Shown: positions 45,452 to 55,378, counted from the first letter of the stretch. The stretch is DNA of 64,000 nt from Escherichia phage iGC_PHA_EC001 (OR437326.1); one strand, 5' to 3'. Numbers and translations are program-made. The notes: generated by a model not told the origin, from the sequence alone.

Positions 45452-45485
45452 GAAAAGGAGCCATTTGGCTCCTTTCTTTTATAAA
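45451..45485. terminator. bidirectional intrinsic terminator between convergent modules
   Basis: AAAGGAGCC-ATTT-GGCTCCTTT flanked by A-run upstream and T-run downstream. Confidence 0.7.
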
Positions 45486-45507: not shown

Positions 45508-46395
45508 TCAGAACGGAATATCATCGTCGAAGTCCATTGGAGGTTCTTCTTGATTACTTGGAGTTGGTTCTGGTTGTGGTTCAGGCTTCTTAACTTCTTT
45601 CTTCTCTTCTTTCTTAGGTTGTTCTACGGAACCACGAATGGCAGCAGCAACTTTATCAGACAGAGCCAGAACTTTACGAGCAGAGTCAATCAGATCTTCT
45701 ACAGATACAGTTTTAATGGTATGGTCTTTACAAGCATTGAGAATAGCGTGACCAACAGATGCCCCAAGATCATAATCATTAATATCAACGCCACGAGATT
45801 CAGCAATTTCAGATTTCAGCGTGACAGTTGCAGATTGAACAACCCCAGCGATATCGAAAGCATCGCCTTTAACACCATTACGAATCAGTTCCAGTGCACC
45901 ATTTACTGCGTGACCAGTTTCCAGACCTACAGTATCACGTTTTTTATAGGACTGCTTAGGAGCAGCATCGTTGGAACCTTTATTGCCAGAAGATTTGTTA
46001 GACTTCTGAACACCATCGGTAGACAATACTGTAATACGAGATTTTTTAGTATTGTAGTAAGTCTTACCGCCTTTATTATCAACGCGATCAATATCAATAC
46101 TTACTTCTACACCTTTTTCAATAGTGATCCAATTATCACCTTCTTTGACTTGCAGGTTTTCATAACCTTCTTTCAGTTCAATGTCACCAAGAGAAATCCA
46201 AACACCTTTCTCATCTGGTTTAGCACCTTTCTCTTTCAGAACAAGAGAAGCTCGGTGAGTTGAAACAATCGTTTTTCCTTCCCAATGAAAAGTTTTAGGT
46301 TCAGCGAATTTATCCAGTTTAACGTAGTCTACGATACCAGTTGCATAAGTTACGGTTTTGCCTTTACGATCAGTTTCAGTATTAATTACGGACAT
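45508..46395 (-). CDS. single-stranded DNA-binding protein with E. coli SSB-type C-terminal tip
   Basis: C-terminus ...PSNQEEPPMDFDDDIPF is almost identical to the E. coli SSB tail; N-terminal beta-rich region consistent with an OB fold. Confidence 0.6.
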   Translation of the reverse strand: MSVINTETDRKGKTVTYATGIVDYVKLDKFAEPKTFHWEGKTIVSTHRASLVLKEKGAKPDEKGVWISLGDIELKEGYENLQVKEGDNWITIEKGVEVSIDIDRVDNKGGKTYYNTKKSRITVLSTDGVQKSNKSSGNKGSNDAAPKQSYKKRDTVGLETGHAVNGALELIRNGVKGDAFDIAGVVQSATVTLKSEIAESRGVDINDYDLGASVGHAILNACKDHTIKTVSVEDLIDSARKVLALSDKVAAAIRGSVEQPKKEEKKEVKKPEPQPEPTPSNQEEPPMDFDDDIPF

Positions 46396-46411: not shown

Positions 46412-46804
46412 TTACATTAATTTTGCACAGAAAGAGCGGAGTCTTTCCATATCATCTTGCTCTAACAGGTATTTACCTTTACCTATTCCAACTCCAATTT
46501 CACCATTAGGAAAATGAACTATTTGCACTGGGAAACCTCCGAGTTTAATTGTGGCAGCTTTGCCTTCTTCGTCTATAACGTTTCGGATTGTATCTTGCAG
46601 TGAAATGAATTCTTTGTTTGTAACAGTGGTTTCAATTATTTCAGATGTTCCAACACGAGCGGTTAGCTTCTTGTCGCCACCTTGAATAACCAAAATTTGA
46701 AAATAAAAAGAGTTGTCAAGACCTACAACATTTTTCTCAACTAGTGTCAAACTGGTGTAGTTTCCATAAACAGTTTCAACAGCTATCTTAGAACGTTCAG
46801 TCAT
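46412..46804 (-). CDS. hypothetical protein (130 aa)
   Basis: ORF track; TTGACA-like -35 upstream on minus strand. Confidence 0.4.
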   Translation of the reverse strand: MTERSKIAVETVYGNYTSLTLVEKNVVGLDNSFYFQILVIQGGDKKLTARVGTSEIIETTVTNKEFISLQDTIRNVIDEEGKAATIKLGGFPVQIVHFPNGEIGVGIGKGKYLLEQDDMERLRSFCAKLM

Positions 46805-46849
46805 TGAATGCTATCCTATCATAAAATGTTTAATATTGTCAAGCTTTAA

Positions 46850-47443
46850 TTACCAAGGAATATCATCTTCTTCCAATCGGGTATCTACTTGAGGTGGACG
46901 TGGAACCTTAACCTCTTTCACAAAACGAAGATACGGGAAACGTGTAGCAATTTTAATAACGTGTTTGGCATCTTCTCTAACATCTTTGTGCAAGAAGCAG
47001 ATCCCTGTTTCCAAAGTTGTTTCAAAATCTTTAGAGTAATAACAATCCTTTCCATCAAATGCAGCCTGGCAGATGGACAGATCAAACTCATTTAGAAAGG
47101 TTGTCATTACGCTTGGTTCCATAATCATAAGGTTGCAAAGCTGACCATCACGTTCAAACTCAAAAACGTGTTTAAGACCAGTAACACCTTCATAATTGTC
47201 AGAAGCCTCTTTGTTTCCTAGTTTACGAATATTGGTTCCCATTAAAGCAGATGCAATTAATCCTTGTATTTGTTCTTCAGTCCGATGTGCAGGAAGGGAC
47301 GTATAGAAATCCAGATCACGTCCAGCAATATCAAGAATACGCCAATCACGAACAGCACCGCCAGCCAAGACAGAATTAGGATCAGCGATCTTTAATACGG
47401 TAAGAATTTCTTTGGCAATATTGATTTGTTTTGATTTAGTCAT
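46850..47443 (-). CDS. Pol-beta-superfamily nucleotidyltransferase (CCA-adding-enzyme head-domain-like) with acidic ...EEDDIPW tip
   Basis: Motif VLAGGAVRDWRILDIAGRDLDFYT matches GGxVRD...DxD of tRNA nucleotidyltransferase/poly(A) polymerase heads; only 197 aa. Confidence 0.45.
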   Translation of the reverse strand: MTKSKQINIAKEILTVLKIADPNSVLAGGAVRDWRILDIAGRDLDFYTSLPAHRTEEQIQGLIASALMGTNIRKLGNKEASDNYEGVTGLKHVFEFERDGQLCNLMIMEPSVMTTFLNEFDLSICQAAFDGKDCYYSKDFETTLETGICFLHKDVREDAKHVIKIATRFPYLRFVKEVKVPRPPQVDTRLEEDDIPW

Positions 47444-47832: not shown

Positions 47833-48044
47833 TAATCTTCCTCCAGATCAATTTCATTATAACAATGTATACAGAAACCATCATTGTGCATATGTTGTTC
47901 ATAAGACATATCTTTACCACAAGACCAACAACGGATATCCCCATCGTCCCATTCACGTTCTTCTTCGCCTTCAAATTCATCTGGTAGGTAAGGCATACCA
48001 AAATAATCTAAATCGTAACTCATATCTTCTCCTACCGAGTCCAC
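47832..48044 (-). CDS. small zinc-ribbon protein (70 aa)
   Basis: CWSC ... CIHC Cys4 pattern; acidic. Confidence 0.35.
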   Translation of the reverse strand: MDSVGEDMSYDLDYFGMPYLPDEFEGEEEREWDDGDIRCWSCGKDMSYEQHMHNDGFCIHCYNEIDLEED

Positions 48045-48622
48045 TCCTTACGTTGTTCAATATGTTCAAGCATATCGTTATACAATGTTTTAAGATGTGG
48101 AACAACTCTTTGATCTTCTGTTTCAAAAAACTTTGTAAGCTGTTCTGCTTTAGCTTTCAACCAACAAAGATGTGCCTCAAGTTCAGTATCAAAACGTCCG
48201 AGCGTTATAATACGACCATCTACTTTTATATGGGCTTTATATTTCTTACGATCTTTTTCGTAATAGAAGCCTACCATAGTGCCATGAGATCTTTTACTTA
48301 CCCTGTAAGCTAAAAACTTGTTAAGATCCCCTGTTACTAAAAGGCAGGTGGCGGGAGAGTAAACTCTCCCTCCTATGATATCTTTATCGAGTTCTAAGTT
48401 TTCCCAGTTATCCCAAGTTTTCAACCAAGTATAGAAGTTGGAAAACAGTTTCCATTCTTCACAGACCGTCACTCCATGATAACAAGGATCACGTTCTTGT
48501 TGGCAAGGGGAGTAACATCTCCCCAACATAGCCATCCATTTCATATAAGCAGGATGAGTTCCATGTTTATCCTTCACCACAATATGTCCATCGAAAACAC
48601 CAACACCATATACTGTTCGCAT
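48032..48622 (-). CDS. AP2-domain DNA-binding protein, homing-endonuclease-like
   Basis: C-terminal segment GFYYEKDRKKYKAHIKVDGRIITLGRFDTELEAHLCW fits the AP2 fold signature; N-terminal W..M..RC...Y.GV.VC..W motif common in phage HNH/AP2 proteins; lies next to the intein-containing polymerase. Confidence 0.45.
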   Translation of the reverse strand: MRTVYGVGVFDGHIVVKDKHGTHPAYMKWMAMLGRCYSPCQQERDPCYHGVTVCEEWKLFSNFYTWLKTWDNWENLELDKDIIGGRVYSPATCLLVTGDLNKFLAYRVSKRSHGTMVGFYYEKDRKKYKAHIKVDGRIITLGRFDTELEAHLCWLKAKAEQLTKFFETEDQRVVPHLKTLYNDMLEHIEQRKEWTR

Positions 48623-48648: not shown

Positions 48649-51600
48649 TCAATGACATGTGGCCCAAGAGTTACCCACATCATATCCGGCAGTAAGCTGA
48701 ACGTTAAGATTGTAAAATTCTCCAGCCTTAGTAACAGCTAAAGCAGCAAGTTCTCCTGCCCGACTATAAGCTGTAAACCATCCACCTTTGGGAGATTCAT
48801 GAATGTTAGCCCAAATTTGTCCCGTTTCTTTTTCCTTATTATGCTTCCATTCTTCAACTTTAGCAAGGCATTCTTTATCAATTTTCTTTTGTTCTTCGGG
48901 ATCGTCTACTTTCTTCCAACCTAATGATTCAGGTGAAAACCATTTAAATTCTACAAGGTTACGAGAAACTTCAAGCTGGGCTTCATCGTGATATGCAATC
49001 ATTTGTTGCACGAAATCTTTATTCTTCCAGTCATCTTTAAAGAAGTCAACACTTAGTCCTTCTTCTTCGATCATGTCGTCATAAATAACCATTGCACGTT
49101 TAGCACAGATAACCCCACCACTTTGGAACAGAGAGTTAAGAATCGCGTGAGCAGAACGAGTAGGAACCTTACGACCGTCAATACCCAAAACATATTGTTT
49201 ACCAGTCTTAACCCAAAAATCGTTTAAACGTTCTTTAAGACGCGCCAATGGGAATGCAGCTTCCCAGAAAGCATCAAACACCAATTGACCTGTAAACTTA
49301 TCGCTACCAATTGTTTTAGCAACCTTGTCGGCTTGTGCACCATAGGTAATACCATACTTAACAGATTTAGCAGGACTACGTTCAAATTTACGTCCAATAG
49401 TTTCAGTAATACGTTTTGCCATCATTGTGTGAACATCATTAGGTTTCTCTAACAACAGAGCGTTACAATACTCGTGTGGCTCCGGCTCGTACCGCCAACA
49501 GTTTCCTGTGATGGTAATGCAGTCTTTCTGACGCATGACCCACGTACCAAGTTCTGTTTGTGGACACCAAACATCCTCTACACCCCACTCTTCAATAGTC
49601 AAACTTTGAACAGGAATGTGAGAGCGGTTAGTCAATGTTGCCACTTTTACTTTCTGCTCTTTTGTATTGAAAGCTACAGAGATATTGCCTCCATGCACCA
49701 GGTACGAGGCAGTTAAAGCTGCTTCAAAAAGTTCACCTGGGTTCTGCGCCCAACGCCAAACAGGTTTTTGTTTATGTTCGTGCCAGTAACCATCTGCAAT
49801 CAAGAAACCTTCCAAGAAAGCTACACGCTCGGCATGAGACATATTAACTACACGTTCTACCCACGGAACATCCCATTTACCTTGTTGAACAGAAGTTAAA
49901 CTATTTACCTGATCTTGTTCCATGTTAAATGGAGCATTACAAATAATGTTATCTCCTGTGCAAAGCTCGGCAGTTGTTCTGACTTTAGGCACATAAGTAT
50001 TCCCTTTACTACGGGTATTAACATACCAACGGTGATCTGCTGTTGCACGGTAAGTGTGTGATTTCCCTTTAATCTCAAACGTCTTACTATTTTTATAGAA
50101 GACCTTACCTTTTACTTTAGTCCATTCTTTCAGACCTGTTTCAGCATTGTACCCTAAAATCTCATCCCCTTCCTTCAGGTCGTGATATCCTACCCAACCT
50201 TTACGAGTCAAAGCTTGAGCATCCATCGGCACACAGTAGTGTGATTCAATTTTTGCTTCCAAAGAGTCGAAGTCGTAGCCGATCTGGAAGTATTTAGGAA
50301 CCTCTACACCAAACAAGTTACGCATCTCCCACCCAAACAAAGATGTGACACGAGGAATATTAGCTACAGATCTATGCTTCATACGAGAGGTTGCAGCATC
50401 ACATGTAGCGGCTGGGGTAGGAATACGCCCATCCGCCCTTACTGCGGCTAAGAAACCTTTATCGTATTCTTGATCTTCTTCATCTTCTTCCCAATCAGCA
50501 CCGCCACCTAAAATAGAGTTCCTACGATGCTTATACGTTAAGTATTCTACAATCTGTGTAGCATAAGGAAACTTCTCACTCAAAGCTTGCAGGTTAGGAC
50601 AAATTTCTTTTTCCTGACCTTTGGTAAAACACGGGTTAGTCAATACTTTAAGACCGCGACCTTTACCTTTTGCTATACGCTCTTGAATCTTCCTTTCCAG
50701 GGTTTCCGGTGTGCACTCCAGATGATCACAACGATCCTGACAAAAATTAGAAGATAGAGTTTGCTCAACGTAAGCTCGGATACCTTTCTGAAGTTCTTCC
50801 TCGCTCTTTTTAATCTTGGTGCCAGATTTAAGAGTCAAGTCTTTATCTTTATATTCAGACGGTACCCAACCTAATCCTACAAGCCAGTTTTTAATATGGG
50901 TTGTATCGTTTAATGTTGCAGGAATGTTAGGATCACATAGAGGTTCATCTGCTGCAACTGGCAGTTTCCACTCTTTCCCCAACATAACTAACCACCAATC
51001 GCCATCCCTCTCTTCCAAATGACCATCATGTTTCTTAGCAAAATTGATCATATGGTTAGTTGGCTCTAAGTTCTTTTTAATTTGCAACTTAGGTGGAATA
51101 AAAGCCTTAAGATAACCTTTTGTTGCTGGTTTAGGTGGCAAAATAGGCTCAACGAGTAAACGAAGACGCTCCATTTCTGCATCCAAAAAAGCAAGGTTCT
51201 CTTCTGCTTGTTTCATGTTAAAAGCAAACCCACGGTGTTCCTGGCGTGTAATAATGTCTGCTACACGTTGTTCAAGTTCAAATGGACCTTCCCATTTATC
51301 ATAATCACCCCATTCTTCCATAAGGTAATTATATACACTTGTATTGGCTTTGTTGTCATAGATACAGTAATAAAGCATATCCGCAGCAAAAGTCTTAAAT
51401 CGATCTTCTTCTGGAATCTCTTTACGGAAATCTATTTTTACATCACCACCTGCTTTTCGAGAAAGTGCTGCCAAACTATGTCCTGATTTGCCCTCAATCT
51501 TTCGATCTGGGTTTAACACTTTACTCAAAATCAAGGAGTCAATAAGTTTTACCTTATTTTTGCCCCACGTATTATATTTAACACTGTAATCTAATCCATA

Positions 51601-51981
51601 AAACAGTTTTGTAGCCAACCAGTCGTAGTTGATACCGTTGTGAGCCACAGCCATTTCAACCAGATATTCAGGCTTGTCTTTAAAATAACCTTCATGATTA
51701 ATAAAATCTGGGAAATCTTTTAGTTGAAAATGTGTGTAATCTTGCGCCACATACTCTTTAAGAACATATGTGTATTTACCATCTGACTCTTCATAAGGAC
51801 GCCCATCAAAGATGTATTTAGGGCCATCGTGGAAAGCTACTATTTCTCCTGTTTCATGGTTCTCTAAGACAATACAGTGCATTTGAAATGTGTCTTTGAG
51901 ACGATAAGGACTAGCTAAATAATCAATAGTGTCATTATTCAACAATCCGTTTGCTTCAATATCCCATGTAAACTTACTCAC
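48649..51981 (-). CDS. family A (T7-like) DNA polymerase with 3'-5' exonuclease domain, precursor containing an intein
   Basis: N-terminal DIEANGL (Exo I); motif A DFDSLEAKI; after the insert KSVKYGITYGAQADKVAKTIG (motif B region); C-terminal GIDGRKVPTRSAHAILNSLFQSGG and ...GNSWATCH match T7 gene 5 polymerase pattern; GTG start. Confidence 0.85.
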   Translation of the reverse strand: MSKFTWDIEANGLLNNDTIDYLASPYRLKDTFQMHCIVLENHETGEIVAFHDGPKYIFDGRPYEESDGKYTYVLKEYVAQDYTHFQLKDFPDFINHEGYFKDKPEYLVEMAVAHNGINYDWLATKLFYGLDYSVKYNTWGKNKVKLIDSLILSKVLNPDRKIEGKSGHSLAALSRKAGGDVKIDFRKEIPEEDRFKTFAADMLYYCIYDNKANTSVYNYLMEEWGDYDKWEGPFELEQRVADIITRQEHRGFAFNMKQAEENLAFLDAEMERLRLLVEPILPPKPATKGYLKAFIPPKLQIKKNLEPTNHMINFAKKHDGHLEERDGDWWLVMLGKEWKLPVAADEPLCDPNIPATLNDTTHIKNWLVGLGWVPSEYKDKDLTLKSGTKIKKSEEELQKGIRAYVEQTLSSNFCQDRCDHLECTPETLERKIQERIAKGKGRGLKVLTNPCFTKGQEKEICPNLQALSEKFPYATQIVEYLTYKHRRNSILGGGADWEEDEEDQEYDKGFLAAVRADGRIPTPAATCDAATSRMKHRSVANIPRVTSLFGWEMRNLFGVEVPKYFQIGYDFDSLEAKIESHYCVPMDAQALTRKGWVGYHDLKEGDEILGYNAETGLKEWTKVKGKVFYKNSKTFEIKGKSHTYRATADHRWYVNTRSKGNTYVPKVRTTAELCTGDNIICNAPFNMEQDQVNSLTSVQQGKWDVPWVERVVNMSHAERVAFLEGFLIADGYWHEHKQKPVWRWAQNPGELFEAALTASYLVHGGNISVAFNTKEQKVKVATLTNRSHIPVQSLTIEEWGVEDVWCPQTELGTWVMRQKDCITITGNCWRYEPEPHEYCNALLLEKPNDVHTMMAKRITETIGRKFERSPAKSVKYGITYGAQADKVAKTIGSDKFTGQLVFDAFWEAAFPLARLKERLNDFWVKTGKQYVLGIDGRKVPTRSAHAILNSLFQSGGVICAKRAMVIYDDMIEEEGLSVDFFKDDWKNKDFVQQMIAYHDEAQLEVSRNLVEFKWFSPESLGWKKVDDPEEQKKIDKECLAKVEEWKHNKEKETGQIWANIHESPKGGWFTAYSRAGELAALAVTKAGEFYNLNVQLTAGYDVGNSWATCH
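49501..50235 (-). mobile_element. intein (245 aa) after polymerase motif A, with LAGLIDADG-like motif
   Basis: Begins Cys (CVPMDAQALT), block-B-like TADH, LAGLIDADG-like LEGFLIADGY, ends ...ITITGN followed by Cys +1; excision brings motif A next to the conserved downstream palm sequence. Confidence 0.65.
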
Positions 51982-55099: not shown

Positions 55100-55378
55100 T
55101 TAAAATGGTTCGTTAGTCTCCATCATATATTCTGCTTCTAGTTCTTCCATATGCTTTCTAAATTGGAAAGCAATTTCTGCTACAGTTACATTTAAATCTT
55201 TTTCAAAAACTTCTGTAGAGCCTTCATAAAAACGAATACCGTCAATTAAAAGCCCTCCGTGGTAATCCCAATCACTTTCACGAGAAAGCGGGTTAGGCTC
55301 TTCATAATAGTAATCCACCTCCACAACTAAGGCTTTCCCGTTACGAGTGGTGTATTCAAAATCAAAAGTGTTAATCAT
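55100..55378 (-). CDS. hypothetical acidic protein (92 aa)
   Basis: ORF track; ATGA-type overlap with upstream gene. Confidence 0.4.
   Translation of the reverse strand: MINTFDFEYTTRNGKALVVEVDYYYEEPNPLSRESDWDYHGGLLIDGIRFYEGSTEVFEKDLNVTVAEIAFQFRKHMEELEAEYMMETNEPF

What the first reader, a model, noticed from the sequence alone, without database searches (positions are those of the whole stretch)
45508..45560. SSB with a host-identical C-terminal tip, and a second protein ending in a similar acidic-aromatic tail
The SSB-like protein ends PPMDFDDDIPF, essentially the E. coli SSB interaction tail, attached to a non-E. coli-like body. This could recruit host SSB-interacting proteins or compete with host SSB. 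The neighbouring nucleotidyltransferase (46850-47443) ends ...LEEDDIPW. Two proteins carrying SSB-tail-like tips recall T7, where acidic Phe-ending tails of gp2.5 and gp4 bind the polymerase.
Basis: partly seen in the sequence, partly recalled or inferred. Interest (0 to 1): 0.5.

Follow-up and report, generated by a model that had tools for sequence, protein, structure and literature searches.

The report
Phage SSB and enzyme share host-like tails
A coliphage's unusual single-stranded-DNA-binding protein ends in the same 12 amino acids that E. coli SSB uses to dock its partner proteins, and a small enzyme encoded two genes away carries a conserved look-alike tail, so both probably plug into the same docking sites.

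Summary
ORF 45508-46395(-) ends EPPMDFDDDIPF, 12 residues identical to E. coli SSB. ORF 46850-47443(-) ends LEEDDIPW. These are the only two such tails among 180 ORFs in the window and 609 ORFs in a sister genome.

The window comes from a Phapecoctavirus, an E. coli myophage. Apart from the tip, the SSB is not a canonical SSB. It has a predicted OB fold, a four-helix domain and a disordered linker, and it belongs to PHROG 4477, "unknown function". All 120 homologue clusters keep the final Pro-Phe while the linker varies freely.

The second protein is a minimal Pol-beta-fold nucleotidyltransferase. Its family is homologous to the N-terminal domain of the anti-Gabija protein Gad2. The DDIPW tip is kept in all ten close homologues. 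Acidic-aromatic tails recur wherever this enzyme sits in the PolA-NTase-130aa-SSB module.

My best reading is that both tails are SSB-Ct-type docking motifs. The partner, host or phage, is not established.

One unexpected result: 17 of the 120 clusters, including phage phi92, add a selected 14-17-residue peptide after DDDIPF. An HNH homing-endonuclease gene usually follows it.

This is a new variant of a known kind, of moderate interest.

The parts
45508..46395 (-). SSB-like gene (295 aa), last gene of the minus-strand replication operon
   Evidence: ORF. AGGAG lies 7 nt before the ATG. PHROG 4477 E=4e-97. 120 homologue clusters. A few GenBank records annotate it as SSB; most call it hypothetical.
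45511..45546 (-). SSB-Ct tip EPPMDFDDDIPF (residues 284-295), identical to the last 12 residues of E. coli SSB
   Evidence: P and F are 100% conserved, and I/D/D/D 77-90%, across 120 clusters. The coding DNA is 37/39 identical to ssb of P1-like phage-plasmids, with no similarity upstream.
45547..45636 (-). Disordered K/E/P-rich linker (residues 254-283)
   Evidence: pLDDT 43-68. Column entropy above 3 bits in homologues.
45637..45930 (-). Four-helix domain (residues 156-253), the most conserved part of the family's body
46006..46395 (-). N-terminal beta-barrel domain (residues 1-130), predicted OB fold
45453..45476 (.). Bidirectional terminator hairpin between the SSB gene and the convergent tail gene
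   Evidence: Conserved in relatives.
46412..46804 (-). 130-aa protein of unknown function (PHROG 16560), always between the NTase and the SSB
   Evidence: The same position in L004, L009, L014, L016 and L018.
46850..47443 (-). Minimal Pol-beta-fold nucleotidyltransferase (197 aa), Gad2-N-domain-like
47309..47362 (-). Catalytic signature G28-G29-A-V-R-D...D43-L-D45
   Evidence: Invariant in the alignments. Aligns to the start of the PolyA_pol head model, below threshold.
46853..46876 (-). NTase tail LEEDDIPW (residues 190-197) on a disordered linker
   Evidence: pLDDT below 50 for residues 172-197. DD[IF]PW is kept in all 10 homologues of 59-98% identity despite linker indels. Relatives read NDFEDDIPW and EDFQDDIPW, that is the SSB-Ct pattern xDFxDDIP[FW].
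46813..46842 (-). Promoter-like site (TTGACA-18-TAGGAT with TG) in the gap before the 130-aa gene and the SSB gene
   Evidence: A consensus match only.

Best explanation
The 295-aa protein is the phage's replication SSB, from a non-canonical and largely unannotated family. Its architecture is OB fold, four-helix domain, disordered K/E/P linker, then a genuine bacterial SSB C-terminal tip (SSB-Ct). The tip is a short linear docking motif. Established knowledge says that the acidic run plus Ile-Pro-Phe and the free carboxylate insert into a hydrophobic pocket with a basic rim on partner proteins. Carrying the host's exact tip would let ssDNA coated by phage SSB keep recruiting proteins that dock on SSB-Ct. 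These could be host genome-maintenance enzymes, the phage's own PolA or primase-helicase, or both. The neighbouring 197-aa Pol-beta-fold nucleotidyltransferase, whose family is homologous to the catalytic N-domain of the anti-Gabija protein Gad2, carries a second tip of the same type (DDIPW) on a disordered linker. It most likely docks in the same class of pocket, which would bring the enzyme to SSB-partner sites at the fork or make it compete there. Shown here: both tails are present, statistically unusual and conserved; the folds; the synteny. Inferred: the binding, the identity of the partners and the enzyme's substrate.
For: The tip is identical to E. coli SSB over 12 residues, and only the tip aligns. 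In 120 homologue clusters down to about 30% identity, Pro-Phe is invariant. The last six positions have entropy below 1.3 bits, against more than 3 bits in the linker. Twenty-eight clusters share at least 11 terminal residues with E. coli SSB, and up to 16. OB fold and domain layout. Replication-operon context with gp4-type primase-helicase and PolA. The NTase tip is conserved across 59-98% identity with variable linkers, and some relatives reproduce xDFxDDIP[FW]. The tail region is predicted to be disordered. Only these two proteins in a whole sister genome carry the motif. In four other lineages with the module PolA-NTase-~130aa-SSB, the NTase ends FPDDIPW, PAPWDEEF, EASFDF or NNEEFKI. An NTase outside the module (L010) has no such tail. 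Another NTase ending NDIPW sits in a phage whose exonuclease ends DDFDDF, which suggests such tips are a recurrent device on phage replication-associated enzymes. Catalytic residues are invariant. Gad2 homology: plus precomputed PF26128 hits in relatives.
Against: No interaction was or could be tested here. Seventeen of the 120 SSB clusters, including phi92, carry a conserved 14-17-residue peptide after DDDIPF. In them the canonical free-carboxylate mode cannot operate unless the peptide is removed, yet DDDIPF stays conserved. That argues for at least one function not requiring a free end. The NTase tip ends in Trp, not Phe, which is untested for SSB-Ct pockets. The phi92-like NTase lacks the tip. 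The NTase model is of low confidence. ssDNA binding by the body rests on fold similarity of only moderate Z.
Confidence: 0.6

Rival explanations
1. Phage-internal wiring only (the T7 model). Both tails dock on the phage's own PolA or primase-helicase, as the gp2.5 and gp4 tails dock on T7 gp5/thioredoxin. Identity with the host tip would then reflect capture of a tail module from an ssb gene, not use of host partners.
For: The replisome is T7-like: gp4-type Toprim plus DnaB_C primase-helicase and PolA. NTase tails in sister lineages are acidic-aromatic but not host-like (PWDEEF, SFDF). Extension-bearing SSBs keep DDDIPF internally, which is compatible with a partner that does not need the free carboxylate. 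The tail-coding DNA is 37/39 identical to ssb of P1-like plasmids, which hints at modular exchange of tails.
Against: If only a phage partner mattered, the tip could co-evolve away from the host sequence, as in T7 and T4. Instead 69 of 120 clusters keep exactly DDDIPF, and many keep 11-16 host-identical residues. The primase-helicase itself has no such tail; it ends ...PTDSNY.
Confidence: 0.3
2. The SSB tail acts mainly in cis. It occupies the protein's own ssDNA-binding groove to tune affinity, cooperativity or ssDNA/dsDNA discrimination, as described for T7 gp2.5, T4 gp32, Enc34 ORF6 and E. coli SSB. Partner recruitment would be secondary.
For: This is established behaviour of acidic SSB tails (Enc34 paper PMC5686142). 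pLDDT rises slightly at the tip (52-61) compared with the linker (43).
Against: Charge-based self-interaction does not explain invariant Pro-Phe, or host-identical stretches of 11-16 residues. It also does not explain a look-alike tip on a separate enzyme. This reading is not exclusive of the best explanation.
Confidence: 0.15
3. The NTase is a tRNA 3'-end repair or tailing enzyme (CCA/A-adding, or MenT-like) serving the phage's tRNA set. Its DDIPW end would be unrelated to SSB biology.
Against: All family matches fall below their curated thresholds. At 197 aa the protein lacks the neck, body and tail domains that bind tRNA. The gene sits in the replication module, not with tRNA genes. The tip is conserved on a variable linker and matches the SSB-Ct pattern over up to 9 residues in relatives. 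The motif occurs nowhere else in the genome.
Confidence: 0.12

Closest known systems
E. coli SSB C-terminal tip (SSB-Ct, ...MDFDDDIPF) and canonical SSBs of P1-like phages and plasmids that carry it
   Same: The last 12 residues are identical. The tip sits on a disordered linker after an OB fold. The penultimate Pro and terminal Phe are invariant.
   Different: The body is not the PF00436 SSB domain; only the tail aligns. There is an extra four-helix domain. The linker is K/E/P-rich, not G/Q/P-rich. Oligomeric state is unknown.
T7 gp2.5 and gp4 acidic, Phe-terminated tails that dock on T7 DNA polymerase
   Same: Two proteins of one replication module carry similar acidic-aromatic C-termini. 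The replisome is of T7 type, with PolA and a gp4-like primase-helicase.
   Different: The second tail is on a nucleotidyltransferase, not on the helicase. The helicase here ends ...DSNY. The tip sequence is the host's, not a phage-specific one. The body gave no gp2.5/DUF2815 match.
Gad2, Gabija anti-defence protein 2 of Bacillus phage SPbetaL7 (bioRxiv 10.1101/2023.05.01.538930)
   Same: The NTase domains are homologous: hhalign 92%, E 5e-7, 121 columns, including the GG...DxD motif and the FDxSxC motif. Relatives carry precomputed Pfam PF26128 'Gad2' hits.
   Different: Gad2 is 400 aa, and the C-terminal ~260 residues are absent here. Gad2 has no SSB-like tip. Anti-Gabija activity is untested here. 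Gad2's mechanism was still unknown in February 2026 (PMC12904381).
Minimal Pol-beta-fold NTases (MenT toxins, ANT/Lnu resistance enzymes) and class II CCA-adding or poly(A) polymerase heads
   Same: The fold and the catalytic carboxylate motif, and a size of about 195 aa like MenT1.
   Different: No sequence-level membership. The C-terminal docking tail has no counterpart in these families.
Free-standing HNH homing endonuclease genes of phages (relevant to the side finding)
   Same: A phrog_2340 HNH gene lies immediately after, or overlapping, the 3' end of extended ssb alleles in unrelated lineages. Intact, degenerate and empty sites occur among near-identical phages.
   Different: The insertion goes with a conserved peptide fused to the target protein's functional C-terminal tip, which is not a described feature of such elements.

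Membership tests
Canonical bacterial SSB (Pfam PF00436 / NCBIfam PRK09010) | Sequence match of the OB domain to the SSB family model | tested here: not met
   No Pfam SSB hit. NCBIfam PRK09010 scores 22.6 bits against a cut-off of 260, and over the tail only. hhalign aligns only the last 15 residues.
Canonical bacterial SSB (Pfam PF00436 / NCBIfam PRK09010) | Disordered linker ending in the acidic tip D-D-D-I-P-F | tested here: met
SSB-Ct docking motif (short linear motif) | Consensus DDDIPF at the extreme C-terminus with a free carboxylate | tested here: met
   TGA follows the Phe codon in the window. Not met in 17 of 120 related clusters, which carry an extension.
SSB-Ct docking motif (short linear motif) | The motif is conserved while the flanking disordered linker is not | tested here: met
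   Entropy profile; pLDDT.
SSB-Ct docking motif (short linear motif) | Binds the hydrophobic pocket and basic rim of partner proteins (ExoI, chi, PriA, RecQ and others) | not testable with these tools
   No complex prediction or binding assay is available.
SSB-Ct docking motif: the NTase tail DDIPW | Acidic run plus I-P-aromatic at the free C-terminus on a disordered linker, conserved | tested here: met
   The terminal residue is Trp instead of Phe, and its fit to SSB-Ct pockets is untested.
Functional ssDNA-binding protein | OB fold | tested here: met
Functional ssDNA-binding protein | Preferential ssDNA binding | not testable with these tools
   Needs EMSA or fluorescence titration.
T7 gp2.5-type SSB (DUF2815) | Family model or fold match to gp2.5 or Enc34 ORF6 | tested here: not met
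PHROG 4477 (unknown function) | Profile match | tested here: met
   E=3.8e-97. The phi92-like homologue scores E=4e-101.
Pol-beta superfamily nucleotidyltransferase | hG[GS]-x(9-13)-Dh[DE]h motif and the alpha-beta NTase fold | tested here: met
Class II CCA-adding enzyme / poly(A) polymerase (PF01743) | Score above the gathering threshold, plus neck, body and tail domains | tested here: not met
   13.9 bits against 23. Best among relatives is 19.1 bits. The protein is only 197 aa.
Gad2 (PF26128) | Homology to the Gad2 NTase domain | tested here: met
   hhalign 92.4%, E 5.2e-7. Precomputed PF26128 hits on relatives. The model is absent from the local Pfam copy, and the window protein's own cluster has no hit on record.
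Gad2 (PF26128) | Full-length architecture (~400 aa) and inhibition of Gabija | tested here: not met
   The architecture is not met, because the ~260 C-terminal residues of Gad2 are lacking. Anti-Gabija activity is not testable here.

The most novel reading that the evidence does not exclude
The DDIPW tip is molecular mimicry of the host SSB tail by a non-SSB phage enzyme. It would deliver a Gad2-like nucleotidyltransferase to SSB-Ct docking pockets on host genome-maintenance or defence proteins, or to SSB-coated ssDNA at the fork. There the enzyme would nucleotidylate or block a target and protect phage replication. In parallel, a homing-endonuclease cassette that targets the ultra-conserved tail-coding end of ssb appends a selected 15-residue cap, which switches the SSB tip between free and masked states in natural phage populations.
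Probability: 0.2. Interest if true: 0.75.

Novelty: new variant of a known kind. Interest (0 to 1): 0.52.

Why it matters
SSB-Ct is the central hub of bacterial genome maintenance, and phage SSBs are sensed by several defence systems (Retron-Eco8, Hachiman, Nhi, AbpAB, DARNA).

This is a large and almost unannotated SSB family, usually labelled 'hypothetical' (for example phi92 gp156). It joins a foreign body to the exact host tip. That gives a natural system for asking which host partners a lytic phage needs.

An enzyme related to Gad2 that carries an SSB-Ct-like tip would be the first hint of how such nucleotidyltransferases find their target. It would also extend SSB-tail mimicry beyond SSBs.

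Near-identical phages carry three alleles: free tip, tip plus 15-residue cap, and cap plus homing endonuclease. This is a ready-made genetic experiment on whether the terminal carboxylate matters in vivo.

Tried and rejected
- **PDB sequence searches.** Searches with both proteins and with the NTase profile gave only the SSB tail match or noise.
- **Pfam and NCBIfam.** Nothing rose above threshold for either protein. The local Pfam copy lacks PF26128, so I tested the Gad2 link with the Gad2 sequence taken from the paper's supplement. A narrow alignment gave only a weak motif hit. A broad 86-sequence alignment gave 92% probability.
- **Recent transfer of the tail from the host chromosome: rejected.** Chromosomal hits are about 80% identical, which is what identical peptides with random synonymous codons would give, and there is no similarity upstream. 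The 37/39 identity to ssb of P1-like plasmids is suggestive of exchange among mobile elements but too short to prove it.
- **Group I intron as the source of the post-tip extension: rejected.** phi92-like phages and L006 have the extension followed directly by a terminator. DIJ07P2 retains only ~83 nt. The 15 codons differ at 7 synonymous and 0 non-synonymous sites between genera.
- **The extension peptide elsewhere.** There is no copy in the window and no PDB match.
- **BFVD fold search.** It returned only uncharacterised phage proteins.
- **Literature.** Searches found nothing on DDIPW, on Phapecoctavirus SSB, or on SSB-Ct mimicry by non-SSB proteins.

Full report
**What the window is.** The 2.4 kb around the finding is 95-99% identical to about 65 Escherichia phages of the genus Phapecoctavirus (Stephanstirmvirinae), including ECML-183-2, anhysbys and tuntematon. 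A well-annotated relative shows the gene order. A long minus-strand operon runs primase/helicase, small ORF, DNA methyltransferase, PolA, HNH, three small ORFs, nucleotidyltransferase, a 130-aa protein, then SSB. It ends at a hairpin shared with the convergent tail-fibre operon. Pfam confirms a gp4-type primase-helicase (Toprim_2 plus DnaB_C) and a family-A polymerase.

**Check of the observation.** ORF 45508-46395(-) encodes 295 aa ending ...PSNQEEPPMDFDDDIPF, followed by a stop. The last 12 residues equal the E. coli SSB C-terminus (PDB 1eqq/4mz9 alignment; suffix count). ORF 46850-47443(-) encodes 197 aa ending ...RLEEDDIPW.

Among 180 ORFs of at least 60 aa in the window, only these two end acidic-plus-aromatic or in [ILV]P[FWY]. 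Among 609 ORFs of at least 50 aa in the complete genome of the near-identical phage DIJ07P2, only these two carry D-I-P-[FW].

**The SSB-like protein.**
- No Pfam family matches it, and PHROG 4477, which it matches at E=4e-97, is labelled 'unknown function'.
- Only the tail matches solved SSBs. A profile of 55 homologues aligned to E. coli SSB only over the last 15 residues.
- An AlphaFold2 model (mean pLDDT 82) has four parts. These are a beta-barrel domain (residues 1-130), a disordered stretch (133-149), a four-helix domain (156-253) and a disordered tail (254-295).
- BFVD returns only uncharacterised phage proteins.
- Most GenBank entries, including phi92 gp156, call it hypothetical.
- Calling it the phage SSB therefore rests on the OB fold, its position in the replication operon and the tail. 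ssDNA binding is untested.

**Conservation of the tip.** I obtained 120 homologue clusters, down to about 30% identity.
- All contain ...xPF. Pro and Phe are 100% conserved and the four preceding positions 77-90%.
- Entropy is below 1.3 bits in the last six positions, against more than 3 bits per position in the preceding 30.
- Sixty-nine clusters read exactly DDDIPF. Twenty-eight share at least 11 terminal residues with E. coli SSB, and one shares 16 (APSNEPPMDFDDDIPF).
- At the DNA level the tail resembles an E. coli chromosomal ssb copy only at about 80%. I estimate that level is expected for the same peptide with random synonymous codons. The tail-coding DNA is 37/39 identical to the ssb of P1-like phage-plasmids, with no similarity upstream. 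This is compatible with occasional tail swapping among mobile elements but too short to prove it.

**The nucleotidyltransferase.**
- G28-G29...D43-x-D45 are invariant in both the close and the broad alignments.
- PHROGs 10174 and 1614 are nucleotidyltransferase families.
- Pfam PolyA_pol-head and NCBIfam CCA-enzyme matches stay below threshold.
- An exhaustive HMMER search found 1034 representatives at E of 0.001 or better; most of the 150 best listed are proteins of 170-240 aa.
- Relatives carry precomputed Pfam PF26128 'Gad2' hits. The local Pfam copy lacks that model, so I took the Gad2 sequence (SPbetaL7 ORF_159) from the supplement of bioRxiv 10.1101/2023.05.01.538930. I compared it with an 86-sequence family alignment. 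The result was 92.4% probability, E 5e-7, over 121 columns, with NTase residues 10-151 aligned to Gad2 residues 15-138.
- The protein family is therefore homologous to the catalytic N-domain of an experimentally verified anti-Gabija protein. That protein's mechanism was still unknown in February 2026 (PMC12904381). The window protein lacks Gad2's C-terminal ~260 residues.

**The NTase tail.** All ten homologues of 59-98% identity end DD[IF]PW, despite indels and substitutions in the 10-20 residues before it. Several read NDFEDDIPW or EDFQDDIPW, which is the nine-residue SSB-Ct pattern xDFxDDIP[F/W].

In the broad family the tip is rare: P0136 ends FPDDIPW, P0238 ends SSNDIPW and P0279 ends DDGIPF.

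Gene context explains part of this pattern. The NTase tails found in each context were:

| Locus | Context | NTase C-terminus |
|---|---|---|
| L009 | PolA-NTase-~130aa-SSB module | FPDDIPW |
| L014 | same module | PAPWDEEF |
| L016 | same module | EASFDF |
| L004 (phi92-like) | same module | NNEEFKI |
| L010 | outside the module | no such tail |
| L015 | beside a ligase, and an exonuclease that itself ends DALDDFDDF | SSNDIPW |

An acidic-aromatic C-terminus therefore looks like a recurrent attribute of this enzyme when it sits in a replication module. The Phapecoctavirus version is the most SSB-Ct-like.

**Mechanism.** Established knowledge has three parts. E. coli SSB-Ct docks through its Ile-Pro-Phe and terminal carboxylate in a hydrophobic pocket with a basic rim on many partners. 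The ssb-113 mutation (P176S) shows that the penultimate Pro matters. T7 gp2.5 and gp4 use Phe-terminated acidic tails to bind the T7 polymerase.

My best reading, at about 0.6 confidence, is that both tails in the window are functional docking motifs of this kind. Host-identical stretches of 11-16 residues across a divergent family favour the use of host partners. The T7-like replisome and the non-host-like NTase tails in sister lineages favour phage partners. The two are not exclusive, and I cannot separate them computationally. The enzyme's substrate is unknown. Gad2 homology suggests an anti-defence role, and placement in the replication operon suggests action at the fork.

**Unexpected side finding.** Seventeen of the 120 SSB clusters do not stop after DDDIPF. 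They continue with [AS]P[ILV]GLQY, then 2-3 variable residues, then a hydrophobic end. Examples are APIGLQYGRNFLHCF, APVGLQYARHAISALYA and APIGLQYRELLYAM.

- **Distribution.** The extended form is found in the phi92 cluster (Justusliebigvirus) and in about 13 Phapecoctavirus records. The window has the short allele.
- **Selection.** Between DIJ07P2 and a phi92-like contig the 15 codons differ at 7 synonymous and 0 non-synonymous sites. The peptide is therefore under selection and is not read-through junk.
- **Link to a homing endonuclease.** In Mt1B1_P17, L016 and L017 an HNH endonuclease of PHROG 2340 (E about 1e-39) follows immediately or overlaps the extended allele. In L018 a degenerate copy follows, and DIJ07P2 keeps a six-codon remnant. 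phi92-like phages and L006 have none.
- **Interpretation.** This looks like the life cycle of a homing-endonuclease cassette that targets the ultra-conserved tail-coding end of ssb and brings a C-terminal cap with it.
- **Consequence.** The canonical pocket needs the free carboxylate. Capped SSBs must therefore be processed, use DDDIPF internally, or be deliberately masked. I could not decide which.

**Verdict.** The SSB is a new architectural variant, a non-canonical body joined to the canonical host tip. The Gad2-like enzyme with an SSB-Ct-like tip is a new variant of tail-mediated recruitment. Neither is categorically new, and no binding has been shown. Interest is moderate at 0.52. It would be higher if the enzyme's tip proves to be host-tail mimicry used for counter-defence.

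Noticed in passing
L001 (DIJ07P2) and L002:946-1878 (Mt1B1_P17); L004:4001-4948 (phi92-like); L006, L016, L017, L018. The window has the short allele at 45508-45513.: Seventeen of the 120 SSB homologue clusters, including phi92 gp156, carry a conserved 14-17-residue peptide ([AS]P[ILV]GLQY...) after DDDIPF, so the Phe is not terminal. Between genera the 15 codons differ at 7 synonymous and 0 non-synonymous sites. Its function is unknown; it could be a cap, a degron, a second motif, or a cleaved propeptide.
   Followed up: partly
L002:480-887(-), L016:4468-4896, L017:4671-5213, L018:4414-4761; remnant in L001: A PHROG 2340 HNH endonuclease gene sits immediately after, or overlapping, the extended ssb alleles in several unrelated lineages. 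Near-identical phages show intact, degenerate, six-codon-remnant and empty states. This suggests a homing element that targets the conserved tail-coding end of ssb.
   Followed up: partly
window 55100-55378 (-): A 92-aa very acidic protein (PHROG 4240, unknown function) just upstream of the primase-helicase ends ...EAEYMMETNEPF. The terminal Phe is invariant and ME[TS]NE.F is conserved in 11 homologues. It may be a third acidic-aromatic tail in the replication operon.
   Followed up: partly
window 49501-50235 (-), inside PolA 48649-51981: Relative to an insertion-free homologue, PolA carries a 245-residue insertion (residues 583-827). It begins with Cys, contains LEGFLIADG and ends ...TGN followed by Cys. 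It looks like an intein with a LAGLIDADG endonuclease. Pfam gave no intein hit at E of 0.001 or better.
   Followed up: partly
window 48032-48622 (-): A free-standing HNH endonuclease (PHROG 953, E=8e-75) lies directly downstream of PolA. The same family sits between PolA and SSB in L017. The replication module is dense with mobile endonucleases.
   Followed up: no
window 46412-46804 (-): A 130-aa protein (PHROG 16560, unknown function) is invariably wedged between the NTase and the SSB in every lineage examined. It has a conserved C-terminal half (...GEIGVGIGKGKYLLE...). It is a candidate partner of one or both neighbours.
   Followed up: no
window 45508-45546 compared with L007:1501-1539 (P1-like plasmid ssb): The tail-coding 39 nt are 37/39 identical to the ssb of ~95-kb P1-like phage-plasmids of E. 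coli, with no similarity upstream. An E. coli chromosomal ssb copy is only about 80% identical. This may reflect exchange of tail modules among mobile elements, or codon-bias coincidence.
   Followed up: partly
L015:65-796 and L015:6001-6918: In an unrelated phage contig, a PHROG 107 exonuclease ends ...DALDDFDDF and a 305-aa NTase homologue ends ...SSNDIPW, next to a DNA ligase. Acidic-aromatic tips on replication-associated enzymes may be widespread.
   Followed up: no
and one search hit lists: Several GenBank records named 'Campylobacter phage' (B15, A150, A145, C3, A110a) are 97-98% identical to E. coli Stephanstirmvirinae in this region. The host labels look doubtful.
   Followed up: no
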